The notes: generated by a model not told the origin, from the letters alone. A stretch of DNA of 64,000 nucleotides from Bacteroidota bacterium (GCA_040390445.1 JAZJYI010000008.1:551994-615993), one strand, 5' to 3'. Numbered from the stretch's first letter, positions 10,153 to 21,948 are shown. Made by a program: numbers and translations.

Positions 10153-10170
10153 AATCTATAGGATTAGTAG
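10153..10170. promoter_or_regulatory. Putative operator, copy 1 (upstream of the SAM-I riboswitch promoter)
   Basis: AATCTATAGGATTAGTAG; its reverse complement matches 12416-12433 at 15 of 18 positions. It lies just upstream of the TATATTTG box at 10181-10188. Confidence 0.45.
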
Positions 10171-10213
10171 GATATATACATATATTTGCAGTGTAGTAAT
10201 CGTTCTTTAAGTA

Positions 10214-10325
10214 CTTATCCAGAAAGACAGAGGGAAAGGCCCGATGACGTCTTAGCAACCTGTACCGGTTTTATAAACTTGTAAAAGGTGCTAATTCCTG
10301 CTCCGCTAAACGGAGAGAGATAAGA
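10214..10325 (+). ncRNA. SAM-I (S-box) riboswitch
   Basis: P1 CTTATC/GATAAG, P2 AAGAC/GTCTT with GAGGG..CCCGATGA, J2/3 AGCAACC, GGTGCTAATTCC and P4 CTCCG-ctaaa-CGGAG. It lies downstream of a TAnnTTTG promoter. Confidence 0.9.
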
Positions 10326-10424
10326 TGACCATAGAAATTCAAATATTCCACCTACCTGATTTCTTCGCGCTTCTGAATCTGATAAGTATTTACAGGCAAT
10401 TTGTAAATAATTAAAAGTACCAAC

Positions 10425-11561
10425 ATGAGCATTTATCTGGACAACGCTGCAACAACACAATTAGACAGGGAAGTATTTGATGCAATGACCCCATATTTAT
10501 TACAGAATTTTGGCAACCCGTCATCACATCATGTACATGGCAGGGTGGTGAAAAATGCTATTGAAAAAGCAAGGGAAACCATAGCCGGCCTGTTGAACGC
10601 ATCACCCGATGAAATTGTATTTACCAGCGGTGGCACTGAGGCCGATAATACAGCCATCCTGTCGAGCGTTCGTTCACATCAAATAAAACATGTTATTACC
10701 ACACCGTTTGAGCACCACGCTGTTTTACACACTCTTGAGGTTTTAAGAAATAACGACGAAATAAAACTAAGCTTTATTAATACCGATAGTAGGGGTAACT
10801 TGGATATAAATCACCTGGATGCCCTGTTGAAAAATAACGAACGCTCGCTGGTATCGGTAATGCATGCCAATAATGAAATTGGTAACCTTAACAATATTGA
10901 ACTGATTGGCGAGGTCTGTAAAAGCAGGGGCGCACTTTTTCACTCAGACACCGTACAGACCATGGGCCATTACCGGCACGATATGTCAAAACTAAAAACA
11001 CATTTTATAGCCGCATCGGCACATAAATTTCATGGGCCAAAAGGGGTGGGGTTTATATACTGCCGCAATGGTGTACAGCTATCACAATTATTGCACGGCG
11101 GTTCGCAGGAACGTAAACAAAGGGCAGGTACTGAAAATATCCATGGCATTATTGGCCTGGCAAAAGCTTTAGAGATAGCCTACCGCGATATTGACGGGCA
11201 CCAGGCATACATACAAAAATTAAAAAACAGGATGATTGCTAAATTGCAGGAACAAATAGGCGATGTACAGTTTAACGGTAACTCGGCCATTGCCGATAAA
11301 AGCCTGTATACTGTACTAAGTGCAAGCCTGCCGGTTAATCATGCGTCCGGAGATTTGCTTACCTATCTCGATCAGAATGATATTTCGGTATCGGGTGGCA
11401 GCGCATGTTCAACAGGCTCGGCATCACATGTATTACAGGCTATCGGTGCTGATACATTTAGAAATACGATCAGATTCTCGTTCAGTAAATTCAATACTGC
11501 CGAAGAAATTGATTATACCGTAGAAAAGCTATCAGCCTTATACAAGGCTATAGCAGCATAA
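10425..11561 (+). CDS. iscS: Cysteine desulfurase, IscS/NifS-like PLP enzyme
   Basis: Motifs IYLDNAATT, FGNPSS, FTSGGTEADN, SAHKFHGPKG and the catalytic SGGSACS. No isc or suf scaffold genes are adjacent, so the symbol denotes the family only. Confidence 0.85.
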   Translation: MSIYLDNAATTQLDREVFDAMTPYLLQNFGNPSSHHVHGRVVKNAIEKARETIAGLLNASPDEIVFTSGGTEADNTAILSSVRSHQIKHVITTPFEHHAVLHTLEVLRNNDEIKLSFINTDSRGNLDINHLDALLKNNERSLVSVMHANNEIGNLNNIELIGEVCKSRGALFHSDTVQTMGHYRHDMSKLKTHFIAASAHKFHGPKGVGFIYCRNGVQLSQLLHGGSQERKQRAGTENIHGIIGLAKALEIAYRDIDGHQAYIQKLKNRMIAKLQEQIGDVQFNGNSAIADKSLYTVLSASLPVNHASGDLLTYLDQNDISVSGGSACSTGSASHVLQAIGADTFRNTIRFSFSKFNTAEEIDYTVEKLSALYKAIAA

Positions 11562-11570
11562 TATTAAAAT

Positions 11571-12017
11571 ATGAGAAAATTTATAATAAGTGCGGGCATT
11601 ATATTATCGGGTTTTTACGCTAACGCGCAAATCCTTACCCCGGTTAAGTGGGCCTACGCAAGTAAACGGCTCAATAAAAATGAGGCTGTTATTTTGGTAA
11701 AAGCAACTATTGAAAAAGGCTGGCACATTTATTCGCAAAATGTAGCCGATGGCGGGCCGGTTAAAACGGCTTTGGTTTTTACCAAATCTGACGAGTATAA
11801 TTTGGTTAACAAGCCTACTGAACCTCAACCGTTAAAAAAATATGAAAAGGCTTTTGATATGGATGTAACCTACTTTGAAAATACGGTTGTGTTTCAGCAA
11901 AAAGTAAAGCTTGTAAAAGATCAGCCGATTATTAACGGAACCGTATCATACATGGCTTGTAGCAACAAAGAGTGCCTGCCGCCAGAGGATGTTACTTTTA
12001 GCGTAAGCGTAAAATAG
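11571..12017 (+). CDS. Stand-alone DsbD N-terminal (alpha) domain protein, exported
   Basis: Signal peptide (ANA-Q), GWHIYS and C-terminal YMACSNKECLPP. Confidence 0.8.
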   Translation: MRKFIISAGIILSGFYANAQILTPVKWAYASKRLNKNEAVILVKATIEKGWHIYSQNVADGGPVKTALVFTKSDEYNLVNKPTEPQPLKKYEKAFDMDVTYFENTVVFQQKVKLVKDQPIINGTVSYMACSNKECLPPEDVTFSVSVK

Positions 12018-12126
12018 ATAAACATTAACAATAATATATAGCATATACACCTACTATCTCACTATTAGATATTAAGTCAATCCTCCACCAATTGATTTTA
12101 TTATTTATAACAGAATAATAAATAAA

Positions 12127-12222
12127 ATGAAAACTGACCCATCTAAAACCTTTATTACCATCCACCATCATTTAGCAGCCTGTTCGGGTACTGCTGTGCA
12201 AAGCTGTTGTTGCCATTTTTAG
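12127..12222 (+). CDS. Candidate Cys/His-rich micropeptide, 31 aa (MKTDPSKTFITIHHHLAACSGTAVQSCCCHF)
   Basis: Translated by hand. It has an A-rich upstream context (AATAATAAATAAA-ATG) and ends in CCC like the second micropeptide. Confidence 0.5.
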   Translation: MKTDPSKTFITIHHHLAACSGTAVQSCCCHF

Positions 12223-12266
12223 GTACACACAACGGGAAAACTAATTAAACTTTATTTAAAAGATTA

Positions 12267-12353
12267 ACATCCTGGCGCTGTATATAGCAACGAGGCTTTA
12301 TGCAATGGTGGAACTTCATTTTGCTGAATTGCTATTGCAGTATGCCGGGATGT
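12267..12353 (+). other. Long imperfect RNA hairpin of unknown role
   Basis: ACATCCTGGC pairs with GCCGGGATGT and TAGCAA pairs with TTGCTA, enclosing an inner GCAATG/CATTTTGC stem. Confidence 0.45.
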
Positions 12354-12415
12354 AAATCAAAAACAATATGCCAATACAAAAAATGTATTATTACGATAAA
12401 TATTTTTAATAAATA

Positions 12416-12433
12416 CTACTAAATCTATAGATA
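12416..12433. promoter_or_regulatory. Putative operator, copy 2 (upstream of the second SAM-I-like RNA)
   Basis: CTACTAAATCTATAGATA is 15/18 identical to the reverse complement of 10153-10170. Confidence 0.45.
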
Positions 12434-12500
12434 TAGTTTGCTTTATTGATATTTATTGTTACCTTTACTGCATCTAATTAACCCCACCATTAATTAGTTG

Positions 12501-12610
12501 ATTTATTAAGAAAAAGGGAGAGGAAGCCTCGATGATCTTTTAGCAACTTTTCAGATATCTGGAATAAGTGCTCTACTTTATCTGATGGAATAATCCAACG
12601 GATAATAAAT
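12501..12610 (+). ncRNA. Divergent SAM-I-like riboswitch
   Basis: The elements occur in the same order as in 10214-10325: TTATT-AAGA, P2 AAAAG/CTTTT with GAGG-aag-CCTC-GATGA, AGCAAC, P3 TTCAGA/TCTGGA, GTGCT, P4 TGGA/TCCA, GATAA. Confidence 0.6.
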
Positions 12611-12622
12611 TAACTAAGTGTT

Positions 12623-12700
12623 ATGAAAAATTTGAAGTATCCAAAAGTAAACAAACAAACAACCGCTACTCCACCGCGATGTTGTTGTATGTGCATGTAG
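12623..12700 (+). CDS. Candidate sulfur-sensing leader peptide, 25 aa (MKNLKYPKVNKQTTATPPRCCCMCM)
   Basis: The last six codons are TGT TGT TGT ATG TGC ATG, then TAG. It starts 12 nt after the SAM-I-like RNA and ends 160 nt before the first operon gene. Confidence 0.65.
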   Translation: MKNLKYPKVNKQTTATPPRCCCMCM

Positions 12701-12860
12701 TTTCCCGTATTACCCCAGGTAAGTTTTAATTACACGGATTAGGTATCAATGGCTTTGCCCGTTGCTGCTTATAGAACTGTTATGCCTCAAATTTTGTCTG
12801 CACTTCCTTAATCTTCATTAAGCAAGTAAAAAAATCATTAACAACATTAAAATTCAAACT

Positions 12861-14177
12861 ATGAACTTCAAAAATTATCTATCAAAAGCAAAATACCTTA
12901 CACTGGGTGTTTTATTAAGTGGTGCAGCGGTAGCGGGGGATAAAGTGCCGGCAGCAAAATTTATTAAAGAGGGCGTATGGCGTGGCGTATTTACGGTGAG
13001 CGAATCGCAGGTGCCGTTTAACTTCGAGCTGAAAGGGAAAGACCCGCAGCATGCCATATTTACATTGATAAACGGAACCCGCCGTGATAACTTTCATGTT
13101 GAGCGCCGCGGTAATGATTCAGTATACATTAAAATGAATACCTACGATGCCGCATTGGTCGCTAAAATAAACGATGATAATACCATTAGCGGTGAATACC
13201 GCAGTCTGGTACCCGGTTTTAGGGGGAATGCCCTGCCATTTACGGCCGAATATGGTAAAAATTATCGCTTTGTAGAGCCAGGTAAAGACGTAGCCCCGGC
13301 TGCCGACTTATCCGGTAAATGGGAAATCAAAACCTATAGTAAAGAAGCCGTCCCTGCATCTATCGCCATATTAAAACAAAAAGGAAATAAGCTAACAGGC
13401 GTGGTGATGACTGTTGTTGGCGACACCCGCGAACTGGAAGGCACTGTACAAGGCGACGAATTTGCGCTGAGTGGTTTTACCGGCCCAAGTCCGTTTATTA
13501 TAAAAGGTAAAATAAATGCTGATGGCACTATTAGCGGCGAAGAAGGTTTCGGCATCTACAAAAACCTGAAGTTTGATGCCACTAAGAACGCAGCTGTTGA
13601 GTTGCCCGATCCATATAAACTAACCTTCCTAAAAGAGGGCTACAAAAAACTTGATTTTTCTTTCCCTGGCATTGACGGCAAACAGGTATCGTTAAGCGAC
13701 GAAAAATACAAAGGCAAGGTTGTTATTATTGAGATAATTGGTACATGGTGCCCAAATTGCACCGATCAAACCGTATTCCTGTCGCCATGGTTTAATAAAA
13801 ACCGCCAGCGTGGGGTAGAAGCCATAGCTATTGGTTTTGAGCAAAAAGACAGCCTGGAGTACGCCAAATACACATTAGGAAAGCTGAAAGAAAAATATAA
13901 CATTAACTATGATATTGCCTTTGGCGGCCTGGCCGATAAAAAGCTGGTATCGCAAAAGCTGCCCGCGCTAAATAAGTTTATCGCTTTCCCAACTACTATT
14001 ATTATTGATAGAAAAGGCGATGTGCGAGAGATTTACACCGGCTATACAGGTACCGTAACCGGCAAATATCACGAGGATTACGAAAAGAAATTCAACAAAG
14101 TATTGGACGAGTTGATTGCCGAGCCAGCACCAGAAACGGCACAGGTTGTTGATAAAAACGCGAGTCAGGGTAAATAA
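12861..14177 (+). CDS. TlpA-family thioredoxin-like disulfide reductase with a large N-terminal beta domain (copy 1)
   Basis: Sec signal; C-terminal redoxin domain with GTWCPNC and FPTTIIIDRKG. Confidence 0.88.
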   Translation: MNFKNYLSKAKYLTLGVLLSGAAVAGDKVPAAKFIKEGVWRGVFTVSESQVPFNFELKGKDPQHAIFTLINGTRRDNFHVERRGNDSVYIKMNTYDAALVAKINDDNTISGEYRSLVPGFRGNALPFTAEYGKNYRFVEPGKDVAPAADLSGKWEIKTYSKEAVPASIAILKQKGNKLTGVVMTVVGDTRELEGTVQGDEFALSGFTGPSPFIIKGKINADGTISGEEGFGIYKNLKFDATKNAAVELPDPYKLTFLKEGYKKLDFSFPGIDGKQVSLSDEKYKGKVVIIEIIGTWCPNCTDQTVFLSPWFNKNRQRGVEAIAIGFEQKDSLEYAKYTLGKLKEKYNINYDIAFGGLADKKLVSQKLPALNKFIAFPTTIIIDRKGDVREIYTGYTGTVTGKYHEDYEKKFNKVLDELIAEPAPETAQVVDKNASQGK

Positions 14178-14199
14178 ACTTTAAACCGAACATAAACAT

Positions 14200-15504
14200 A
14201 TGAAAACTAACAATTTAAAAGGGCTTTTAATAGGCTTGTTATTTAGCGGTGCCGCTTTCGCAGGCGACAAAGAACCGGTAAAATTTATTAAAGAAGGCGT
14301 TTGGCGCGGTGTATTCCGTGTAAGCGAATCACAGGTGCCGTTCAACTTTGAATTTAAAGGCAAGGATGCAGAGCATGCGGTGTTTACGCTGCTAAATGGC
14401 ACCCGCCGGGATAATTTCCATGTACAAAAAATAGGTAAAGATTCGGTGTTCATTAAAATGAATACCTACGATGCAGCCCTTGTTGCCAAAATTGAAGAGG
14501 ATGGCACGCTAAGCGGCGAGTACCGCAGCCTGGTACCGGGTTTTAGAGGCAACTCGTTGCCTTTTACTGCCGAGTATGGCAAAAACTACCGCTTTGTTGA
14601 ACCGGGCAAGGATGTTGCCCCGGCAGCAAACCTAACCGGTAAGTGGGAGTTGAAGGTTTACTCGAAAGAGCAGGTGCCAAACAAAATTGCTGTTCTTAAA
14701 CAAAACGGCAATAAGCTAACCGGTGTAATTATGCAGGTAACCGGCGACAGCCGCGAATTGGAAGGTACAGTACAGGGCGATCAGTTCGAACTATCCGGTT
14801 TCACTGGCCCAAGCCCAAAGATTTATCATGGTAAAATAAATGCAGATGGCACCCTGAGTGGCGAAATTGGCTCCGGTATTTACGATAATACCAAGTTTGA
14901 CGCTGTAAAAGATGAAAAAGCCGAACTGCCTGATCCATATAAGCTAACTTTTTTAAAAGAAGGCTATAAGAAACTGGATTTCACTTTCCCTGACCTGAAC
15001 GGCAAAGCGGTATCATTAAGCGATGATAAATATAAAGGCAAAGTGGTTATTGTAGAGATTATAGGTACCTGGTGCCCTAACTGTACTGATCAAACCGTGT
15101 TTTTGTCGCCATGGTTCAACAAAAACCACCAGCGTGGGGTAGAAGCCATTGCTCTTGGTTTTGAGCAAAAGGATAGCCTTAAATACGCTCAATATACCTT
15201 AGGTAAGTTGCGCGATAAATATGATGTGAAATACGACATCCTTTTTGGCGGCCTGGCCGATAAAAAATTGGTATCGCAAAAACTGCCTGCGCTTAATAAG
15301 TTCGTGGCATTCCCAACTACGATCATCATCGATAGGAAAGGCGAAGTACGCGAGATCTATACCGGCTACACCGGCACGGTAACCGGTAAATATTACAAGG
15401 ATTACGAAAAGAAATTTAATGCCCTGCTTGATAAACTATTGGCAGAAGATGCGCCAACAACCGCCGCCGTAAGCACAGACGATAACGCATCAAAAGGAAG
15501 ATAA
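14200..15504 (+). CDS. TlpA-family thioredoxin-like disulfide reductase (copy 2, tandem paralogue)
   Basis: Colinear with the previous gene and highly similar along its whole length, with the same WCPNC motif. Confidence 0.88.
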   Translation: MKTNNLKGLLIGLLFSGAAFAGDKEPVKFIKEGVWRGVFRVSESQVPFNFEFKGKDAEHAVFTLLNGTRRDNFHVQKIGKDSVFIKMNTYDAALVAKIEEDGTLSGEYRSLVPGFRGNSLPFTAEYGKNYRFVEPGKDVAPAANLTGKWELKVYSKEQVPNKIAVLKQNGNKLTGVIMQVTGDSRELEGTVQGDQFELSGFTGPSPKIYHGKINADGTLSGEIGSGIYDNTKFDAVKDEKAELPDPYKLTFLKEGYKKLDFTFPDLNGKAVSLSDDKYKGKVVIVEIIGTWCPNCTDQTVFLSPWFNKNHQRGVEAIALGFEQKDSLKYAQYTLGKLRDKYDVKYDILFGGLADKKLVSQKLPALNKFVAFPTTIIIDRKGEVREIYTGYTGTVTGKYYKDYEKKFNALLDKLLAEDAPTTAAVSTDDNASKGR

Positions 15505-15534
15505 AAGATTAACCGGACTATATAATTAACTATT

Positions 15535-15564
15535 AACCTGGTGCAGATTTGCCTGCGCCGGGTT
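15535..15564 (+). other. Intercistronic hairpin
   Basis: AACCTGGTGCAG pairs with CTGCGCCGGGTT using G-U pairs; the U-tract is weak. Confidence 0.45.
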
Positions 15565-15594
15565 TAAACAACAAAACTAAGCACAAGAACGATC

Positions 15595-16251
15595 ATGAAA
15601 TTAACAATTGGCCTATCGGTAATAACCATAGCATCTATTGCAGCATTAACTGGCATAGCTCCAAACAAAACAAACCATGTAAAACCCACGGCAATTGCAG
15701 TAAATCCTATCAGGTTTGCAAAACCGGTTGTTTTTAAAGTAGATAACCAAACCAGCAAACTTACCTGGCTGGCTAAAAAAGCCACCGGCGAACACTCTGG
15801 CACCGTAGAAGTAAGCGATGGTAGCTTTACCCTTGATAATAACACACTAAAAGCAGGTAGCTTTGATATTGATACCCGTAGTATTACAGACACGGATATT
15901 ACCGACGAAGGTGCAAACGGTAAACTGGTTACTCACCTAAAAAGCGACGACTTTTTCAGTGTAGAAAAGCACCCTAAAGCAAACTTTGTGCTTACATCTG
16001 CCACAAAAGCAGCGGGTAATATTTATAATGTTAAAGGTAACCTAACCATAAAAGGCATCACTAACGAGGTAACTTTTCCGGCTACGGTTGCGGTAAACGG
16101 TAAAAAGCTAACTGCCAACGCTAAGATCACCATAGATCGTACCAAGTACGATATCAAATTCCGGTCTAAAAACTTCTTTGAGAATTTGGGCGACAAAGTG
16201 ATCTATGACGATTTTGATATTAATGTGGCGCTTGTAGCCAACGCCCAATAA
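15595..16251 (+). CDS. YceI family exported lipophile-binding protein
   Basis: Signal peptide; motifs LTWLAKKATGEHSG, LVTHLKSDDFFSVEKHP, GNLTIKGIT and IDRTKYDI. Confidence 0.9.
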   Translation: MKLTIGLSVITIASIAALTGIAPNKTNHVKPTAIAVNPIRFAKPVVFKVDNQTSKLTWLAKKATGEHSGTVEVSDGSFTLDNNTLKAGSFDIDTRSITDTDITDEGANGKLVTHLKSDDFFSVEKHPKANFVLTSATKAAGNIYNVKGNLTIKGITNEVTFPATVAVNGKKLTANAKITIDRTKYDIKFRSKNFFENLGDKVIYDDFDINVALVANAQ

Positions 16252-16283
16252 ATAAAGAAACTACATTGATTAGGTTGGAAGAT

Positions 16284-16316
16284 AAAGATCCCTGCTTTGA
16301 GCGGGCAGGGACTTTA
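16284..16316 (+). terminator. Intercistronic hairpin or weak intrinsic terminator
   Basis: TCCCTGC-tttgagcgg-GCAGGGA followed by CTTTATT. Confidence 0.5.
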
Positions 16317-16366
16317 TTGACTAATAAACTCGTAAATAATATACCATAACAGCTGAGCAAATAACC

Positions 16367-17332
16367 ATGAAAAAGAAGAATATCACCTTAACTATAATAA
16401 GTGTTACGCTTTTATTCATTACCACGGTAAGCTTCATGTCGGGGCCCGATGAAGTGCAAACCAGGGAAGAGCTTGGCCGTAAACTATTTTTTGATAACAT
16501 CCTTTCAAAAGACAATACTATTAATTGCTCATCGTGCCATAACCCCGAGTTTGCATTTGCCGATACCTCTGTATTTAGTAAAGGTATTGGTGGTAAGCTA
16601 ACTGCACGTAATTCGCCGGGGCTTACAAATTTATCGGGCCGTACCCACTTTTTTTGGGATGGCCGCGCAGCCTCGTTAGAAGAACAGGCCCTCGGGCCAA
16701 TTACATCGCCCGATGAGATGGGTTTACCCATTGAAGAGGCTATTGAACGACTTAACAAAAACGAATTTTATGCAAACGCTTTTCAAAAAATATTTAAAGC
16801 AGCGCCGAATAAAGATAATTTGTTGAAAGCACTTGCTGCTTTTGAACGGACGCTGGAAACAAGCAACAGCCCTTATGACCGCTATATAAATGGTGATGAT
16901 AATGCATTATCAGCCGCTGCGGTACGTGGCCGCAATATATTTATAGGCAAGGGTAACTGTAACAACTGCCACTCTGGCGAAGATTTTACCGCAGACCGCT
17001 TTAAAAGCATTGGCTTATATAATGGCAAAGACCTGAACGATGCCGGCAGGTTCAAAATAACAAAAGACAGCACCGTACTGGGCGAATTTAAAATACCAGG
17101 TTTGCGTAATGTAGCCGTAACAGCGCCATACATGCACAACGGTAAGTTTAAAACTCTGCGCAACGTGGTGGAGTATTACAACAATCCATCAGCTTTGGTA
17201 AGTGACGGTATAAACCGCGACCTGTCTTTAGATAAACCATTGAACCTTTCATCGCAGGATATAGATGACGTAGTTGAATTCCTGAAAGCCTTAACTGATG
17301 ACAGGTTCGCCAAAAATATAAGCAGAAACTGA
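16367..17332 (+). CDS. Di-heme cytochrome c peroxidase superfamily protein, MauG/MbnH-like
   Basis: Two CxxCH motifs (CSSCH, CNNCH), FFWDGRAASLEEQA and FKIPGLRNVAVTAPYMHNG; signal peptide. Confidence 0.88.
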   Translation: MKKKNITLTIISVTLLFITTVSFMSGPDEVQTREELGRKLFFDNILSKDNTINCSSCHNPEFAFADTSVFSKGIGGKLTARNSPGLTNLSGRTHFFWDGRAASLEEQALGPITSPDEMGLPIEEAIERLNKNEFYANAFQKIFKAAPNKDNLLKALAAFERTLETSNSPYDRYINGDDNALSAAAVRGRNIFIGKGNCNNCHSGEDFTADRFKSIGLYNGKDLNDAGRFKITKDSTVLGEFKIPGLRNVAVTAPYMHNGKFKTLRNVVEYYNNPSALVSDGINRDLSLDKPLNLSSQDIDDVVEFLKALTDDRFAKNISRN

Positions 17333-17430
17333 TACCATAAACTAATCTGAACACTTAAAAGCAAAATGTAATGCGGGCCAAACGGCCTGTACGAAATGCC
17401 CTTTTGCCTAAATTTTAACACAATAAAACA

Positions 17431-20202
17431 ATGAAAAGAGCTATACTTTATATATTATTCTTAAGCCTTATTTATGGGCAAAATACACTGGCGCAGGAGG
17501 CGAGACGGGTAACCGGCGTAGTTACGTCGGCCGATGATGGCCAGCCCTTACCTGGTGTATCTGTACAGGTAAAAGGTACTAATGAGGGTACTGTCACTAA
17601 ACTTGATGGTACGTTTGAACTAAATATAACTACCGGTAAATACCTTATTTTTTCTTTTGTAGGGTACGAAACACAAGAGATTTATATTGATGGTATCCGC
17701 AGGTTTAACGTGGCGCTAAAGCCAAAAGGCAATCAATTGGGCGATGTGCAAATCATCGGTTCACGTAACGCAAACCGTACCAAGCTTAACTCGGCCAACC
17801 CGGTTGATATTATTGATATTAAGGCGCTACAGGAGAGCAGCCCGCAGGTAAGCGTTACTCAACTGCTGCAATACGTATCACCGTCATTCCACTCATCCGT
17901 ATCTGGTGGTGGTGATGCGGCATCGGCAACCTCAACAGCGCAATTGCGTGGGTTGGGAGTAGATCAATTACTGGTTCTGATAAACGGTAAACGCCGCCAT
18001 AAAAGCTCTAACATCAGTTGGGGTGGTTTGGGTAATGGTGCTACCGGTTATGATCTAAACTCTATCCCAACCGGTTCTATAGACCGCATTGAGATACTAC
18101 GCGATGGTGCGGCCGCTCAATATGGTTCTGATGCTATTGCAGGGGTAATTAATATTGTATTGAAGAAATCTACCGATCAGTTAACGCTTAATTCTACTGC
18201 CAGTAGCCGCCGCCGGGGGGATGGCATTACTACGCGTACCAGTAGCAATTACGGCGTTAAACTCGGTGACAAAGGTGGTTTTTTAAACTTGACCGGCGAA
18301 TTTGCTACCCAGGCGGTATCCTTGCCGGTAGGTAGGGATGATGCAGGTTTGTATATAGGCCCTGCATATGGCGGGGGCGCTAACACCCGCGGTTTCGATC
18401 AGATCTATACCAAAGAAATAGATGATGCCATCATCAAATCAAGAGGGATAGACAGGCATTACTTTGACCAGCGCGGCAGCACCAATAAAGCTATTGACGC
18501 ATTGCTGTTCTTTAATGCGGCGGTACCTTTACAAAAAGACGTTGAACTATATAGTTTTGGTGGTATAAGCCAGCGCAATTCACAATTTACGGCCGTTTAC
18601 CGTTTACCAGGCTGGACAGAGCGTAACAATACATTTGTTTATCCTGATGGCTTTTTACCGGCCATGGATAACATCATTTCTGATAAATCATTAGCGGTAG
18701 GCGTAAAAGCCAAAGTACACGGTTGGAATGTAGATATATCAAACGTGTACGGTAATAATAGCTTTGGTAACAATATCTCTAACTCGCTTAATGCAAGCTA
18801 CGGCTTACGTTCGCCGCGTAAATTTGACGCGGGGAGTTATAGCGCCAGCCAGAATACCGGTAGTTTAGATTTTAGCCGCTACTTTGATAAGGTACTGAAA
18901 GGGGTGAACATTGCCTTTGGCGGCCAGTATCGTGTTGAAACTTACCGTATCAATGCAGGCGATGAGGCGTCTTATTCTAAAGCCGACCTGAGGCAGATAT
19001 ACGGTGTGGATACGACATCAGGCGGTATACCTTACACAACATCGTTAGGGCAAACGCCGCTAAACGGTTTATCGCCAGGCTCACAGATCCACGCGGGTTT
19101 CAGGCCAAGTAACGAGGTGAACGTAAACCGCTCCATCTCTGCAGGCTACGCCGATGTGGAAGTGAACGCAACCAACGCCTGGTTGGTATCTGGCGCTTTG
19201 CGAGTTGAGAACTACTCAGATTTTGGGAGCGTATTTACTTACAAAGCCGCAACCCGTTATAAATTTGCCGATTTCTTAAGCGTTCGTGGTTCCATTAACA
19301 CCGGCTTCCGCGCACCCGATCTGGCACAGTTCTATTATACCGAAACATCAACAACGTTCCAGAATGGAGTAGCTATTGATCAGGTTACGGCTAACAACGT
19401 TAATCCGGCTACCAAAGCCTTAGGTATACCGAGCTTAACGCCTGAGCGGTCTAAAGGCTATACCGCTGGTATCACCTCATCGCCCATACCAAATTTTGAG
19501 TTTACGATTGATGCTTATAAAATTGATATCCGCGACAGGGTAGGTAACACGGGCCGTTTTTCGGCTACAGACACCAACCTACCTGCAGATGTAAGGGCAT
19601 TATTTGTGGCAACGGGTACGGTACAGGCTAAGTTCTTCTACAATTCCTTTAGTACCAGTACCAGAGGGGTGGAGCTTACAGGTAGTTATAAATATACTTT
19701 CGAGAATGGCGCTAAAGCAACTTTCCTGGTAGGGGCCAATTTCCTGGAAACTAAATTGACTAAAGTGAACACCCCACCAGGACTGGAAGCGTACCGCTAC
19801 ATTATATTTGATGAGTCGGAGAAGGCTCGTGTAACTAACAACATACCGTCTAAAAAGATCACCTTACAAGGTACTTATGGAATAGACAGGTTCAACTTCC
19901 TGCTGCGTACGGTTTACTTTGGCTCGGTAGTTTCAGTTACCCAATTAAACGCCAATTTTCCTAAGCCCGATTATTACTACCAAACGTTCAGTCCGGTTTG
20001 GATAACCGATTTATCTGTAGGGTATGCGGTATCTAAAAACTTATCGGCTACGATAGGTGCCAACAACCTGTTCAATATACTGGGCGATTATACTATCCCT
20101 GCACCGGGTAGTAACATTACCCGCATCCCTGGCCCGGGCTCTTCACAGGCAGGGACCAATACAGGTATACAGCCATTTGTAAGATTATCGGCTAAATTTT
20201 AA
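17431..20202 (+). CDS. TonB-dependent receptor with an N-terminal carboxypeptidase-regulatory-like domain (not SusC type)
   Basis: Plug motifs LVLINGKRRH and RIEILRDGAAAQYGSDAIAGVINIVLK; C-terminal Phe; no SusD downstream. Confidence 0.92.
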   Translation: MKRAILYILFLSLIYGQNTLAQEARRVTGVVTSADDGQPLPGVSVQVKGTNEGTVTKLDGTFELNITTGKYLIFSFVGYETQEIYIDGIRRFNVALKPKGNQLGDVQIIGSRNANRTKLNSANPVDIIDIKALQESSPQVSVTQLLQYVSPSFHSSVSGGGDAASATSTAQLRGLGVDQLLVLINGKRRHKSSNISWGGLGNGATGYDLNSIPTGSIDRIEILRDGAAAQYGSDAIAGVINIVLKKSTDQLTLNSTASSRRRGDGITTRTSSNYGVKLGDKGGFLNLTGEFATQAVSLPVGRDDAGLYIGPAYGGGANTRGFDQIYTKEIDDAIIKSRGIDRHYFDQRGSTNKAIDALLFFNAAVPLQKDVELYSFGGISQRNSQFTAVYRLPGWTERNNTFVYPDGFLPAMDNIISDKSLAVGVKAKVHGWNVDISNVYGNNSFGNNISNSLNASYGLRSPRKFDAGSYSASQNTGSLDFSRYFDKVLKGVNIAFGGQYRVETYRINAGDEASYSKADLRQIYGVDTTSGGIPYTTSLGQTPLNGLSPGSQIHAGFRPSNEVNVNRSISAGYADVEVNATNAWLVSGALRVENYSDFGSVFTYKAATRYKFADFLSVRGSINTGFRAPDLAQFYYTETSTTFQNGVAIDQVTANNVNPATKALGIPSLTPERSKGYTAGITSSPIPNFEFTIDAYKIDIRDRVGNTGRFSATDTNLPADVRALFVATGTVQAKFFYNSFSTSTRGVELTGSYKYTFENGAKATFLVGANFLETKLTKVNTPPGLEAYRYIIFDESEKARVTNNIPSKKITLQGTYGIDRFNFLLRTVYFGSVVSVTQLNANFPKPDYYYQTFSPVWITDLSVGYAVSKNLSATIGANNLFNILGDYTIPAPGSNITRIPGPGSSQAGTNTGIQPFVRLSAKF

Positions 20203-20224
20203 ATCATATCAATAAACAGAACTC

Positions 20225-21139
20225 ATGAAAATAATGGAATATATTTTAAAAAGAATAAAAAATCCAGAAAGGCTGCGAGGGCTTCAACCTGTCTATGCGT
20301 TAAGTATGCTTATAATATTACTATCAGCATCCTGCAAAAAAACCAATTACCTGGATACTGATAATTCGCAAAGGCCGCCATTAAGCGCCAGGGTGAAATT
20401 GGTGAACGCCTTAAGCATAACCGCGCCAATAAACTTCCTGGATTTTACCAGGCAGGTTAACACCAGCCTGGTAGTTCATAATGCATCTACAGGTTACCTG
20501 GATACACAATTTGGCAAGGTACAATACAACACCACCGAGGGTAGCAATACCAGTTACAAGTCATCATACGTGTTTGGCGGGAGTGCCATTTTTCAGCAGG
20601 AGACGGATAAAGCATCTTTTTCGGGCCCTAATGGCCCCATAGCCGATTTTTATCATACACTATTTGCGGTAGCCAAACGTAAGCCCAGCAAATTAAACCC
20701 CGGTAACCGCGACAGCCTGGTATTGGTTTATGATGATCTGGATGCCCCGGCAGCAGGCAAAACCAAAGTAAGGTTTGCTAACTTCTCGCCCGATGCACCA
20801 AATGTAAGTTTTGCTGCGGCAGGCGGCACCGCCATATTTACCAACGTAGGCTACGGTAGTTTTGGCGATCAAACCGTACTTACTTATGACGCTACAGGTA
20901 AAGGCCCTGCCACCATACCGGGACTAAACTGGAAAACCCTGGGGCCATTTAAAGAGATAGCACCCACGGCAGTAGTAAACTTTGAGATAAGGAATGCCAC
21001 CACCAATGCTGTGATCCCGGTAACCGGAACAGGGTTAACAGGGGTAACATTTGAGGCCGGGAAAATATATACCGTGTTTATAAACGGAACGGTAACAGGT
21101 GGAACTTTAAGCGCGACGATAATTACCCATACTAAGTAA
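20225..21139 (+). CDS. DUF4397-like surface lipoprotein
   Basis: Lipobox LSASC followed by KK; two repeats of the type RVKLVNA and KVRFANFSPDAP; C-terminal GKIYTVFING. Confidence 0.75.
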   Translation: MKIMEYILKRIKNPERLRGLQPVYALSMLIILLSASCKKTNYLDTDNSQRPPLSARVKLVNALSITAPINFLDFTRQVNTSLVVHNASTGYLDTQFGKVQYNTTEGSNTSYKSSYVFGGSAIFQQETDKASFSGPNGPIADFYHTLFAVAKRKPSKLNPGNRDSLVLVYDDLDAPAAGKTKVRFANFSPDAPNVSFAAAGGTAIFTNVGYGSFGDQTVLTYDATGKGPATIPGLNWKTLGPFKEIAPTAVVNFEIRNATTNAVIPVTGTGLTGVTFEAGKIYTVFINGTVTGGTLSATIITHTK

Positions 21140-21175
21140 CAGCACATACAATAAGTGATTTAATATTTGTGCTTT

Positions 21176-21211
21176 AAAGGCAGCGCGGCTTTATACCCGC
21201 CTGCCCTTTTT
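21176..21211 (+). terminator. Intrinsic terminator-like hairpin before sod
   Basis: AAAGGCAGCGCGG pairs imperfectly with CCGCCTGCCCTTT and is followed by a T run. Confidence 0.55.
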
Positions 21212-21237
21212 AACGTTTAATTATAAAAACAATAGCC

Positions 21238-21948
21238 ATGAAAGATAACAGTAGAAGACAATTCATCAAAAATACCCTTGCAGCTACCGCAGCCGTAACC
21301 GTGGGCACATCTTTAATAGATAGTTCAACCGCGTTTGCAGGTGTAGAAGCATTTAAGTTTACACAGGTGCCGCTGCCATTTAAATACGCCGACCTGGAGC
21401 CGAATATTGATGCATTAACTAATGAAATACATTATACAAAGCACCACACCGCATATATTAAAAATGTGAATGATGCCATTGTTGCCGAAAAGATACCCTA
21501 CACCAGCGAAAAGCAATTTTTTGACAATGCCTCAAAACTATCGGCCAAGGCCCGAAACAACGCAGGCGGCGCCTGGAACCATAACTTTTTTTGGGAAAGT
21601 TTGCGCGCACCAGGTGGGGCAGGGCCTCAGGGTAAATTGTTGGATGCTATCAACGGCTCCTTTGGTTCACTTGATAAACTAAAAGAACAATTTAACGATG
21701 CCGCTACAAAACGTTTTGGATCTGGCTGGGCATGGCTGGTTGTTGATGGCGGGAAATTAAAGATTGGGTCAACAGCTAACCAGGATAATCCATTATTTGA
21801 TAATGCCGAACTAAAAGGAACGCCTTTATTGGGCCTGGATGTTTGGGAACATGCCTACTATTTAAAGTACCAGAATCGCCGCCCCGAGTATATTGCTAAT
21901 TTTTGGAATGTAGTTAACTGGGATAAAGTAGCATCGCGATTGAGTTAG
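21238..21948 (+). CDS. sodA: Tat-exported Fe/Mn superoxide dismutase with Mn-type residues
   Basis: Twin-arginine signal SRRQFIK; metal ligands in HYTKHH, NHNFFW and DVWEHAYY. GG in NNAGG and NQD are typical of Mn-type enzymes. Confidence 0.9.
   Translation: MKDNSRRQFIKNTLAATAAVTVGTSLIDSSTAFAGVEAFKFTQVPLPFKYADLEPNIDALTNEIHYTKHHTAYIKNVNDAIVAEKIPYTSEKQFFDNASKLSAKARNNAGGAWNHNFFWESLRAPGGAGPQGKLLDAINGSFGSLDKLKEQFNDAATKRFGSGWAWLVVDGGKLKIGSTANQDNPLFDNAELKGTPLLGLDVWEHAYYLKYQNRRPEYIANFWNVVNWDKVASRLS

What the first reader, a model, noticed from the sequence alone, without database searches (positions are those of the whole stretch)
12861..21948. Whole operon is stripped of sulfur amino acids
Hand counts from the supplied translations: TonB receptor (923 aa) 2 Met and 0 Cys; YceI (218 aa) initiator Met only; SOD (236 aa) initiator Met only; DUF4397 lipoprotein none after its lipid-anchor Cys; each TlpA 3 Met plus the two CPNC Cys; di-heme protein 4 Met plus the four heme-binding Cys. 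The total is about 26 of 2874 residues (0.9%). The two SusC transporters in this window carry about 12/1042 and 18/1178, five to seven times the 0.2% of the receptor. Known: proteins made during sulfur starvation tend to be depleted of Cys and Met. This supports the regulatory evidence independently.
Basis: partly seen in the sequence, partly recalled or inferred. Interest (0 to 1): 0.85.

Follow-up and report, generated by a model that had tools for sequence, protein, structure and literature searches.

The report
Sulfur-poor envelope operon, sulfur-starvation controlled
A seven-gene operon for exported redox and import proteins in a soil Mucilaginibacter has lost almost every dispensable methionine and cysteine. 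It sits behind RNA signals that should switch it on when sulfur amino acids run short, so it is a clear new example of the known "sulfur-sparing" rule.

Summary

- **Rank in the genome.** Under my own gene call, the operon has 0.66% Cys+Met outside the initiators, against 2.82% genome-wide. That is the lowest of 4535 seven-gene windows.
- **What is depleted.** The effect is mainly in Met (0.19 times the secreted-protein level).
- **Not uniform.** TBDR, YceI and SOD are extreme (below the 1st percentile of exported proteins). The two TlpA proteins and DUF4397 are moderately low. The di-haem enzyme is ordinary.
- **What remains.** Of the 19 residues left, 9 Cys are catalytic, haem-binding or lipid-anchor residues. 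Six Met sit in columns invariant across 37-45 orthologues, and 3 lie in or next to signal peptides.
- **Conservation.** The depletion holds in 45 orthologous loci from three orders. It is absent from paralogues and from the nearest non-orthologous homologues.
- **SOD.** Three Met columns that are nearly invariant in sister clades read Asn, Leu and Phe here.
- **Regulation.** A SAM-I riboswitch, a conserved CCCMCM leader peptide and a shared palindrome precede the operon. Other sulfur-linked loci in the genome are also sulfur-poor.

Sulfur sparing is the best reading (about 0.7), and it is a new member of a known kind. No expression data could be obtained.

The parts
12416..12433 (+). Operator-like near-palindrome CTACTAAATCTATAGATA (CTAC-N7-RTAG), about 70 nt upstream of the riboswitch
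   Evidence: The strict pattern CTACTA-N3-CT-N-TAGA occurs only 4 times in the 5.4-Mb genome. All four are intergenic and all lie at sulfur-linked loci. The relaxed palindrome also lies upstream of the orthologous operon in Chitinophaga, Larkinella and other loci that lack the riboswitch.
12500..12611 (+). SAM-I riboswitch aptamer (RF00162)
   Evidence: Rfam cmscan gives 52.4 bits against a gathering score of 44.4, E 3.4e-9, full length. It is one of six in the genome. A riboswitch sits at the same position in about 30 orthologous loci, and Rfam confirms the one in Pseudarcicella.
12623..12700 (+). 25-codon leader ORF MKNLKYPKVNKQTTATPPRCCCMCM*
   Evidence: Read directly from the sequence. The CCCMCM-type tail is conserved while the body varies (MKNLKFCCCMCM...CCCCRCCMC), and it is kept in loci without a riboswitch. 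It is one of only 5 intergenic Cys-tailed short ORFs with a downstream gene in the genome.
12861..14177 (+). TlpA1: exported thiol:disulfide oxidoreductase with an N-terminal all-beta region of roughly 16 strands and a ResA-like thioredoxin domain (CPNC)
   Evidence: Pfam AhpC-TSA/Redoxin; AlphaFold model pLDDT 81, Foldseek best match ResA. It has 2 non-initiator Met (M92, M183), both invariant in 37 orthologues, plus C297 and C300.
14200..15504 (+). TlpA2, paralogue of TlpA1
   Evidence: Pfam. M87 is invariant; M178 is Met in 31/43 and Leu in 12/43 orthologues; C292 and C295 form the CxxC.
15595..16251 (+). YceI-like lipid/polyisoprenoid-binding protein, no Met or Cys after the initiator
   Evidence: Pfam PF04264, E 4e-29. 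25 orthologues pooled have 0.09% sulfur residues. 89 of the 120 closest database homologues have none. Genomic paralogues have 1.1-3.5%.
16367..17332 (+). Di-haem CCP/MauG/MbnH-superfamily enzyme; not sulfur-depleted
   Evidence: Pfam CCP_MauG, E 3e-56. NCBIfam MbnH and MauG models hit below their cut-offs. It has 4 haem Cys, invariant M118 and M256, and M24 in or near the signal peptide. Orthologues pooled have 2.8%.
17431..20202 (+). TonB-dependent receptor (923 aa) with one internal Met and no Cys
   Evidence: Pfam Plug, beta-barrel and CarboxypepD_reg domains. M412 is invariant in 45 orthologues of 66-99% identity. Only 13 other Met/Cys cells occur in the whole alignment, pooled 0.14%. ATG occurs 33 times in frame +1 but only twice in frame, so the avoidance is at the codon level.
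20225..21139 (+). DUF4397 lipoprotein; no sulfur residue after the lipobox Cys37
   Evidence: Pfam PF14344. In 45 orthologues the mature part has 0.09% sulfur residues.
21238..21948 (+). Tat-exported Fe/Mn superoxide dismutase with no Met or Cys after the initiator
   Evidence: Pfam Sod_Fe_N, Sod_Fe_C and TAT_signal. All operon-linked copies in the fetched loci and the window have 0; one further operon-linked copy, P0116, has 1. Conserved Met columns are replaced by N62, L122 and F187. The sulfur-poor state marks one clade of 51 sequences, support 97.
10153..12222 (+). Upstream companion unit: a second copy of the palindrome (10153-10170), a SAM-I riboswitch (10212-10326), a NifS/IscS-like cysteine desulfurase (10425-11561), an exported DsbD-alpha domain (11571-12017) and a second Cys-tailed short ORF (12127-12222)
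   Evidence: Rfam 81.1 bits; Pfam Aminotran_5 and DsbD_N; motif; the short ORF is conserved in L003, L008, L029 and L031. These two proteins are not sulfur-depleted, at 2.1% and 2.7%.

Best explanation
This is sulfur sparing (elemental economy) in a sulfur-amino-acid-starvation operon. The seven exported proteins are predicted to be made when SAM and charged Cys/Met-tRNA are scarce.

Proposed control:
- Low SAM leaves the SAM-I riboswitch in its ON state.
- Ribosomes stall on the CCCMCM tail of the leader peptide.
- A shared palindromic operator ties the operon to other sulfur loci.

Proposed selection: because the proteins are built and exported exactly when sulfur amino acids are limiting, selection has removed every Met and Cys codon the proteins can do without. 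What remains is the initiators, catalytic CxxC pairs, haem-binding CxxCH, the lipid-anchor Cys and a handful of invariant Met. This cuts the sulfur cost of the response, and the mRNAs can be translated while Met-tRNA and Cys-tRNA are scarce.

Shown here:
- the composition and its genome-wide rank;
- its Met specificity;
- its conservation in orthologues;
- its absence from paralogues and more distant homologues;
- the replacement of conserved Met columns in SOD;
- the presence and conservation of the cis-elements;
- the same bias in other sulfur-linked loci.

Inferred:
- that the operon is actually induced by sulfur limitation;
- that sulfur economy rather than oxidant resistance drove the loss;
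- what the operon does. My guess is envelope redox and antioxidant defence plus TonB-dependent uptake of a sulfur source.
For: (1) Rank and specificity.
- The operon has 0.66% against 2.82% genome-wide and is the lowest of 4535 windows.
- Met is 0.19 times and Cys 0.53 times the secreted-protein baseline. No other residue is below 0.65 times.

(2) Only one of the 19 residual sulfur residues is visibly dispensable (TlpA2 M178, Leu in 12/43 orthologues). The rest are functional Cys, Met at invariant columns, or lie in or next to signal peptides.

(3) 45 orthologous loci in Mucilaginibacter, Pedobacter, Olivibacter, Pseudarcicella, Larkinella and Chitinophaga keep the gene order and the depletion, down to 66% identity.

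(4) Controls.
- TBDR paralogues have a median of 1.17%.
- The nearest non-orthologous TBDR homologues have a median of 1.11%.
- YceI paralogues have 1.1-3.5%, and the non-sulfur-context TlpA paralogue has 1.96%.

(5) SOD.
- The distribution among 120 homologues is bimodal (0-2 against 5-8).
- The Met columns are replaced.
- Copies that left the operon for a DinB/AI-2E context carry 2 and 5 sulfur residues.
- A zero-sulfur copy in Pedobacter sp. V48 sits beside an SrpI encapsulin, with the palindrome upstream.

(6) Regulation. There is a SAM-I riboswitch, a conserved Cys/Met leader and the palindrome.

(7) Other sulfur-linked loci of the genome.
- MetY has 1 Met in 436 aa, homoserine dehydrogenase 3 sulfur residues in 410, and MetQ 0 Met.
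- The SAM-controlled SusC/SusD pair has 3/1067 and 2/480.
- The SusC/SusD/aminotransferase set in the SrpI island has 4/1926.
- Pooled they have 1.31%, at a median percentile of 5, permutation p < 1e-5.
- Several of these are cytoplasmic and are not antioxidants.

(8) Precedent. Sulfate-starvation regulons elsewhere include antioxidant enzymes such as the 1-Cys peroxiredoxin LsfA, Ohr and SodB in P. aeruginosa (PMC12581299). Here a SAM riboswitch also precedes a 1-Cys peroxiredoxin.
Against:
- No intrinsic terminator or clear expression platform was found after the riboswitch or leader.
- The di-haem enzyme is not depleted, and MetH, MetF, the cysteine desulfurase and DsbD-alpha in the same putative regulon are not either.
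- TonB receptors and exported proteins are sulfur-poor in general, so part of the effect is a class bias.
- The sulfur-poor SOD state is essentially one clade. It is therefore one main evolutionary event, and the orthologue counts are not independent.
- One sulfur-poor SOD (P. heparinus, 1 Met) lies in a context with no sulfur link that I could see.
- His and Trp are also somewhat low (0.65 times), which fits cost or oxidation arguments as well.
- My gene calls and signal-peptide flags are crude heuristics.
Confidence: 0.7

Rival explanations
1. Oxidant-proofing. The operon encodes envelope proteins that face or handle reactive oxygen species (Tat-SOD, a peroxidase-like di-haem enzyme, thiol reductases). 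Met and Cys, the most easily oxidised residues, were removed so that the proteins survive oxidants. Sulfur supply is not the selective agent.
For: - The functions are redox or antioxidant.
- His and Trp, which are also oxidisable, are about 0.65 times the secreted baseline.
- Sulfur starvation and oxidative stress are physiologically linked (PMC12581299), so both pressures may act together.
Against: - Homologous Tat-exported SODs in sister Bacteroidota clades face the same periplasmic oxidants, yet keep 5-8 Met, including three near-invariant columns.
- The same depletion is seen in non-antioxidant and partly cytoplasmic sulfur-regulon proteins: MetY, homoserine dehydrogenase, MetQ, SusC/SusD and a periplasmic aminotransferase.
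- The cis-elements sense SAM and Cys/Met codons, not oxidants.
- The enzyme that would meet peroxide directly, the di-haem protein, is the one that is not depleted.
- Tyr (0.81 times) and Phe (1.23 times) are not avoided.
Confidence: 0.15
2. Generic class bias. Outer-membrane and secreted proteins, especially abundant ones, are cheap in costly amino acids. The operon is simply a run of such proteins and has no specific link to sulfur.
For: - Signal-peptide proteins in this genome have a median of 2.4% against 2.8% overall.
- TBDR paralogues have a median of 1.17%, and many SusC proteins sit among the 40 most depleted proteins.
- Economy of extracellular proteins is documented (PMC2932507, listed).
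Against: - Within-class comparisons still place TBDR, YceI and SOD below the 1st percentile.
- The operon ranks 1 of 186 windows made almost wholly of signal-peptide genes for Met.
- The nearest homologues are about 10-fold richer.
- The bias is about 5-fold for Met, while every other residue stays at 0.53 times or more.
- The most extreme proteins in the genome cluster at sulfur-linked loci.
Confidence: 0.08
3. Phylogenetic inertia or chance. The low sulfur content arose once by drift in an ancestor and is merely inherited, with no continuing selection.
For: The sulfur-poor SOD state maps to essentially one clade. Orthologues share ancestry, so the counts are not independent.
Against: - At 66-80% identity, each TBDR orthologue has about 200-300 substituted positions. 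Even so, only 13 stray Met/Cys cells occur in 45 sequences, about 0.3 per protein. Substitutions drawn from ordinary TBDR composition would give about 2-3 per protein.
- The same state is kept in seven unrelated protein families side by side.
- SOD copies that left the operon regain Met.
Confidence: 0.05

Closest known systems
Sulfur-depleted proteins of sulfur-starvation responses. Examples from my own knowledge: the low-sulfur phycocyanin set of cyanobacteria (Mazel and Marliere 1989), sulfur-assimilation enzymes of E. coli and yeast (Baudouin-Cornu et al. 2001), and the sulfate-starvation-induced proteins of Pseudomonas. These are cited in PMC4357790, PMC2932507 and PMC12581299, which were seen.
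   Same: Proteins expected to be made under sulfur limitation have far fewer Cys and Met than the proteome and than their homologues. Conserved Met positions are replaced. Sulfur-replete counterparts exist in the same genome.
   Different: - Here the bias covers a whole seven-gene envelope operon of unknown role in Bacteroidota, not assimilation enzymes or pigments.
- It includes an outer-membrane receptor with a single internal Met and a Tat-SOD isozyme with none.
- The inferred trigger is a SAM-I riboswitch plus a Cys/Met leader, not CysB or Met4-type transcription control.
- Induction has not been measured.
Antioxidant members of the Pseudomonas aeruginosa sulfate-starvation regulon: LsfA (1-Cys peroxiredoxin), Ohr and SodB (PMC12581299)
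   Same: Sulfur limitation is coupled to antioxidant enzymes. In this genome one SAM riboswitch precedes a 1-Cys peroxiredoxin and another precedes this operon with its SOD, peroxidase-like enzyme and thiol reductases.
   Different: The proteins here are periplasmic or outer-membrane, not cytoplasmic. The regulators differ. No omics data exist for this organism.
Cysteine-run leader peptides: candidate leaders upstream of the cys and cbs operons of Actinobacteria (PMC1262725), polycysteine leaderless short ORFs of mycobacteria (bioRxiv 10.1101/834739), and the cysS upstream ORF of Rhodobacterales (PMC8632094)
   Same: A short ORF carries a run of Cys codons close to its stop, upstream of sulfur-related genes. 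As in Mycobacterium, no intrinsic terminator follows it.
   Different: - The tail mixes Cys and Met (CCCMCM).
- It lies directly behind a SAM-I aptamer.
- It controls an envelope operon rather than biosynthesis genes.
- It is found in Bacteroidota.
SrpI (family 2A) encapsulin with cysteine-desulfurase cargo, a sulfur-starvation marker first seen in Synechococcus (function from my own knowledge; Pfam PF19307 and NCBIfam NF041166 names)
   Same: It is present in this genome in a sulfur-poor island with TlpA3-metNIQ and a sulfur-poor SusC/SusD pair. In Pedobacter sp. V48 it lies beside the zero-sulfur SOD.
   Different: It is a different machine. It is relevant only as a marker that the sulfur-poor genes cluster with sulfur-starvation functions.

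Membership tests
Sulfur-spared (elementally economised) sulfur-starvation proteins | Cys+Met content significantly below the proteome and below proteins of the same class | tested here: met
   0.66% against 2.82%, lowest of 4535 windows. TBDR, YceI and SOD fall below the 1st percentile of signal-peptide proteins. This is not met by the di-haem enzyme taken alone.
Sulfur-spared (elementally economised) sulfur-starvation proteins | Homologues or paralogues used outside sulfur limitation are sulfur-replete, and conserved Met/Cys positions are substituted | tested here: met
   Paralogues. TBDR representatives have a median of 1.11%. SOD columns 62, 122 and 187 are Met in 66-68 of 68 replete homologues and read N, L and F here.
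Sulfur-spared (elementally economised) sulfur-starvation proteins | Expression is induced by sulfur limitation | not testable with these tools
Only cis-element evidence is available.
SAM-I (S-box) riboswitch regulon | An aptamer matching RF00162 above the gathering score, in the 5' leader on the coding strand | tested here: met
   52.4 bits against 44.4, at 12500-12611(+), 250 nt before the first gene. It is conserved in about 30 orthologous loci.
SAM-I (S-box) riboswitch regulon | An expression platform (terminator or start-site sequestering helix) coupled to the aptamer | tested here: inconclusive
   No intrinsic terminator was found in 12000-12900. The MFE fold shows the aptamer plus long-range pairing but no clear platform. 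A leader ORF follows instead.
Leader-peptide (ribosome-stalling) attenuators | A short ORF with a run of the regulatory codons, conserved across species upstream of the regulated genes | tested here: met
   The CCCMCM-type tail is conserved while the peptide body varies, and it is present with and without the riboswitch. Such ORFs are rare in the genome.
Leader-peptide (ribosome-stalling) attenuators | Alternative terminator and antiterminator hairpins overlapping the leader | tested here: not met
   No terminator-like site was found. A Rho-dependent or translational mechanism would be needed, as proposed for the Mycobacterium cys leaders (PMC1262725).

The most novel reading that the evidence does not exclude
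The sulfur-free build may be the signature of an undescribed, widely conserved sulfur-starvation envelope module. Its parts would be:
- a TonB receptor with a DUF4397 lipoprotein as importer of a scavenged sulfur source;
- a DsbD-alpha/TlpA reducing branch;
- a YceI carrier;
- a MauG/MbnH-like di-haem enzyme;
- in some lineages, a Met-free Tat-SOD.

Its mRNA would carry a sensor (the CCCMCM leader) enriched in exactly the codons the payload has eliminated. The payload would then stay translatable under the very condition that stalls the sensor.
Probability: 0.4. Interest if true: 0.75.

Novelty: new member of a known kind. Interest (0 to 1): 0.55.

Why it matters
- Composition alone gives an independent, sequence-only clue to when an uncharacterised operon is used. 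Here it agrees with three separate cis-regulatory signals.
- It assigns a conserved seven-gene envelope operon of soil Bacteroidota to the sulfur-limitation response.
- It links sulfur starvation to periplasmic redox and antioxidant functions, a link that has been noted in Pseudomonas but not explained there.
- It outlines a sulfur regulon in Sphingobacteriaceae: six SAM riboswitches, Cys/Met leaders, a shared palindrome, and an SrpI encapsulin island.
- The Met-free SOD and the single-Met TonB receptor are convenient test cases for measuring the fitness value of elemental sparing.

Tried and rejected
- **Terminators.** The terminator scan and the fold of the leader region gave no expression platform.
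- **TlpA N-terminal domain.** Neither Pfam nor a PDB sequence search recognised it, even at E = 10. The Foldseek search of the whole model was dominated by the ResA-like domain and did not identify the N-terminal all-beta region.
- **Sulfur-poor TBDR homologues in other phyla.** These came from Idiomarina, Hymenobacter, Salinibacter and Niveispirillum. The two I looked up showed contexts that are not the same operon and are only weakly sulfur-related, so I draw nothing from them.
- I compared cleaved signal peptides with mature parts to separate the two. Both are depleted, so the test does not discriminate.
- **DNA-level ATG avoidance.** Rejected: there are 33 ATG in frame +1 of the TBDR gene.
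- **Foreign origin.** Rejected: operon GC is 43.8% against about 43% for the genome.

Full report
**What is there.** The window is contig C8:551994-615993 of a 5.38-Mb, 43% GC genome. Its nearest named relative is Mucilaginibacter sp. L294, with a receptor 99% identical. Seven same-strand ORFs occupy 12861-21948, with gaps of 22-115 nt. Pfam names them as follows:
- two TlpA/ResA-like thiol:disulfide oxidoreductases with a 250-residue unassigned N-terminal part;
- a YceI-like protein;
- a di-haem CCP/MauG-superfamily enzyme;
- a TonB-dependent receptor with an N-terminal CarboxypepD_reg domain;
- a DUF4397 lipoprotein;
- a Tat-signal Fe/Mn superoxide dismutase.

**Check of the observation.**
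The total is 26 Cys+Met in 2874 residues. The two SusC proteins used as yardsticks are 12/1042 and 18/1178.
- To judge significance I called genes on the whole genome. I used ORFs of at least 60 codons, a codon-usage score trained on long ORFs, and greedy removal of overlaps. This gave 4646 genes and 89% coding.
- Non-initiator Cys+Met is 2.82% genome-wide. The operon has 19/2867 = 0.66%, the lowest of all 4535 windows of seven consecutive genes. The next independent locus has 1.13%.
- By binomial p-value the receptor is the fourth most depleted protein in the genome, at 1e-10.
- Percentiles against 1127 proteins of at least 150 aa with a signal-peptide-like N-terminus: YceI 0.7, SOD 0.7, TBDR 0.9, TlpA1 and TlpA2 about 8, DUF4397 10, di-haem enzyme 41.
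'Whole operon' hides a gradient: three proteins are extreme, three are moderately low, and one is ordinary.

**Specificity.**
- The bias is essentially about Met. The operon has 0.19 times the Met and 0.53 times the Cys of the secreted-protein baseline. No other residue is below 0.65 times.
- Met ranks 1 of 4535 windows, and 1 of 186 windows in which at least six genes have signal peptides.
- It is not avoidance of the trinucleotide. The receptor gene has 33 ATG in frame +1 against 2 in frame.
- Operon GC is normal.

**What is left.** The 19 non-initiator sulfur residues break down as follows:
- 9 Cys: two CPNC pairs, two CxxCH haem sites and the lipobox Cys.
- 3 Met in or next to signal peptides: di-haem enzyme M24, DUF4397 M4 and M28.
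- 6 Met at columns invariant in 37-45 orthologues: TlpA1 M92 and M183, TlpA2 M87, di-haem enzyme M118 and M256, TBDR M412.
- 1 Met at a variable column: TlpA2 M178, which is Leu in 12 of 43 orthologues.

The proteins are thus stripped close to a functional minimum.

**Controls within the genome.**
- 31 TonB-receptor paralogues have a median of 1.17% (5th-95th percentile 0.19-2.4%). The operon receptor, at 0.11%, is second lowest.
- YceI paralogues have 1.1-3.5% against 0.
- The cytoplasmic SOD has 1.0% against 0.
- The closest TlpA paralogue in a context unrelated to sulfur has 1.96% against 0.92%.
- A third TlpA copy of the same architecture (0.74%) heads a metNIQ methionine-transporter operon.

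**Orthologues.**
- A scan of one genome per species found 47 close loci. 45 of them carry the same gene order (TlpA, TlpA, YceI, di-haem, TBDR, DUF4397) in Mucilaginibacter, Pedobacter, Olivibacter, Pseudarcicella, Larkinella and Chitinophaga. SOD is appended in eight of the fetched loci besides the window.
- The depletion is conserved:
  - TBDR (66-99% identity): one invariant Met, no conserved Cys, 13 stray Met/Cys cells in 45 sequences, pooled 0.14%.
  - YceI: pooled 0.09%.
  - Mature DUF4397: 0.09%.
  - Operon SOD copies in the fetched loci and the window: 0.
- The di-haem enzyme family is not depleted (2.8%).
- With 200-300 substituted positions per receptor orthologue, ordinary TBDR composition would add about 2-3 sulfur residues each. 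About 0.3 are seen, which points to continuing selection rather than inheritance alone.

**Homologues outside the orthologous group.**
- *TBDR.* An exhaustive HMMER search of 1.84 billion representatives gave 147 full-length relatives. The orthologue representative (78% identity) has 1 Met. The rest (33-43% identity) have a median of 1.11%.
- *YceI.* 89 of the 120 closest database homologues have no sulfur residue at all. These are probably all orthologues.
- *SOD, distribution.* The 120 closest homologues (65-93% identity, all about 236 aa) are bimodal. 45 have 0-2 sulfur residues and 63 have 5 or more.
- *SOD, column test.* I compared the 45 copies with 0-2 sulfur residues against the 68 copies with 4 or more. 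Three columns are Met in 66/68, 68/68 and 68/68 of the replete group. They read N62, L122 and F187 in the window protein and mostly N, L and F in the depleted group. Two of these columns are Met in the genome's own cytoplasmic SOD.
- *SOD, tree.* The depleted proteins form one clade of 51 sequences with support 97. This is largely one evolutionary event.
- *SOD, contexts.*
  - A copy with 1 Met sits in the operon.
  - A copy with none, in Pedobacter sp. V48, lies next to an SrpI-type encapsulin. A CTACTAGTTCTGTAGA palindrome precedes it.
  - Two copies that moved to a DinB/AI-2E-transporter context have 2 and 5.
  - A Cyclobacteriaceae copy in an unrelated context has 5.
  - One P. heparinus copy with 1 Met has no visible sulfur link. 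That is an exception.

**Regulatory context.**
- *Riboswitch.* Rfam finds a SAM-I riboswitch at 12500-12611 (52.4 bits, gathering score 44.4) and another at 10212-10326 (81.1 bits). The second lies ahead of a NifS/IscS-like cysteine desulfurase and an exported DsbD-alpha domain. DsbD-alpha is the usual electron donor of TlpA-type proteins (from my own knowledge).
- *Leader peptide.* Directly behind the operon's riboswitch is a 25-codon ORF ending in CCCMCM. A covariance model built from the genome's six riboswitches finds one at the same position in about 30 orthologous loci. Rfam confirms the Pseudarcicella one. The leader tail is conserved while the body varies: MKNLKFCCCMCM in the P. foliorum and P. 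panaciterrae group...CCCCRCCMC in another group. It persists where no riboswitch lies directly upstream of the operon.
- *Rarity of such ORFs.* Only five intergenic Cys-tailed short ORFs with a downstream gene exist in the genome. Four of them precede sulfur-poor genes: this operon, metY, a SAM-controlled SusC, and a TBDR next to the sulfate-assimilation cluster.
- *Palindrome.* A near-palindrome noted by another first-stage entry (CTACTA-N3-CT-N-TAGA) occurs exactly four times in the genome. All four are intergenic: two upstream of the window's two riboswitches and two in the SrpI island. Degenerate copies precede two other Cys leaders. The relaxed form CTAC-N7-RTAG lies upstream of the operon in Chitinophaga, Larkinella and other loci that lack the riboswitch.
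- *Missing piece.* No intrinsic terminator follows the riboswitch or the leader. The expression platform is unresolved, as with the Cys leaders of Mycobacterium (PMC1262725; bioRxiv 10.1101/834739).

**The rest of the sulfur regulon.** The six SAM riboswitches of the genome precede the following:
- metY-metX-hom: MetY has 1 Met in 436 aa, and homoserine dehydrogenase has 3 sulfur residues in 410;
- metH-metF, which are not depleted;
- a 1-Cys peroxiredoxin (2 in 211);
- a small TlpA followed by SusC (3/1067) and SusD (2/480);
- the desulfurase unit;
- this operon.

A separate island on contig C4 holds the following:
- TlpA3-metNIQ, where MetQ has 0 Met;
- an SrpI encapsulin with its cysteine-desulfurase cargo (0.9-1.3%);
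- SusC/SusD and a periplasmic aminotransferase (4/1926).

Excluding the operon itself, these 21 genes pool to 1.31% and sit at a median percentile of 5 (permutation p < 1e-5). Several are cytoplasmic and none of those is an antioxidant. This is the main argument that sulfur economy, not oxidant resistance, is the common cause.

**Interpretation.**
- The best reading (about 0.7) is sulfur sparing in an operon expressed when sulfur amino acids are scarce. The phenomenon itself is known. Examples are the low-sulfur phycobiliproteins of cyanobacteria, the sulfur-assimilation enzymes of E. coli and yeast, and the Pseudomonas sulfate-starvation proteins. I know these from memory; they are cited in papers seen.
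- A sulfur-starvation response that contains antioxidant enzymes also has precedent. P. aeruginosa induces LsfA (a 1-Cys peroxiredoxin), Ohr and SodB under sulfur limitation (PMC12581299).
- Oxidant-proofing remains a possible contributor (about 0.15). It is weakened in three ways. Sister-clade Tat-SODs are Met-replete. Non-antioxidant regulon members are also depleted. The peroxidase-like enzyme is the one protein that is not depleted.
- Generic secreted or outer-membrane economy (about 0.08) and drift (about 0.05) are contradicted by the within-class and homologue controls.

**Limits.**
- Gene calls and signal-peptide flags are my own heuristics.
- Orthologue and clade counts share ancestry.
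- The function of the operon is inferred only.
- An earlier AI note reports a similar sulfur-poor TonB/TlpA/YceI/MauG-like operon in Stenotrophomonas and other phyla. I could not test this here.

**Verdict.** This is a clean, well-controlled new example of a known principle. It is useful mainly because it assigns a physiological condition to an uncharacterised, conserved envelope operon of Bacteroidota.

Noticed in passing
window 12416-12433 and 10153-10170; genome C4:291856 and C4:293000; L012, L013, L017, L030, L032-L035, L046 upstream of the operon: The palindromic operator-like motif CTAC-N7-RTAG (strict form CTACTA-N3-CT-N-TAGA) occurs only 4 times in the genome. All four are at sulfur-linked intergenic sites. 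It is conserved upstream of the orthologous operon even where the riboswitch is absent. This suggests an unidentified sulfur-responsive DNA-binding regulator.
   Followed up: partly
genome C18:45893-46125 (outside the window): The metY-metX-hom operon has the same layout. A SAM-I riboswitch is followed by a leader ORF ending in GCICMCCCCC. MetY itself has 1 Met and no Cys in 436 aa.
   Followed up: partly
genome C1:533475-534384 (outside the window): A SAM-I riboswitch directly precedes a 1-Cys peroxiredoxin (211 aa, 1 Met, 1 Cys). This parallels LsfA in the Pseudomonas sulfate-starvation regulon.
   Followed up: no
genome C4:283894-299222 (outside the window): A sulfur-poor island. It holds TlpA3-metNIQ, an SrpI-type (family 2A) encapsulin with its cysteine-desulfurase cargo, and a SusC/SusD/periplasmic aminotransferase set with 4 sulfur residues in 1926.
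   Followed up: partly
window 12127-12222: A second Cys-tailed short ORF (MKTDPSKTFITIHHHLAACSGTAVQSCCCHF) lies after the DsbD-alpha gene. Similar ORFs ending in CCCL, CCCCN or CCCQ occur at the same place in L003, L008, L029 and L031.
   Followed up: partly
L009:2840-3087 and L010:2954-3202: Pedobacter soli and P. ghigonis carry two SAM-I aptamers in tandem directly upstream of the operon, and no Cys/Met leader was detected there.
   Followed up: no
window 12861-13620 (TlpA1 residues 30-250) and the same part of TlpA2: The N-terminal half of both TlpA proteins has no Pfam or PDB sequence match. It is predicted with good confidence (pLDDT mostly 80-95) as an all-beta region of roughly 16 strands. 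The same architecture heads the metNIQ operon, so it may bind a sulfur-containing substrate.
   Followed up: partly
genome C8:453349-461609 (about 98 kb upstream of the window): A SusC (1 Met in 977 aa) and SusD (0 Met) pair is followed by S15 and M1 peptidases. This peptide-uptake locus is as sulfur-poor as the operon's receptor, but I found no riboswitch, leader or palindrome there.
   Followed up: partly
window 12861-21948: Gln is also unusually low in the operon: 0.69 times the secreted baseline and rank 1 of 186 windows rich in signal peptides. This is unexplained.
   Followed up: no
window 16367-17332: The di-haem enzyme scores best against the NCBIfam MbnH-family and MauG models, but below both cut-offs. 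By phmmer against PDB sequences it is closest to classical bacterial cytochrome c peroxidases. Its subfamily and substrate remain open.
   Followed up: partly
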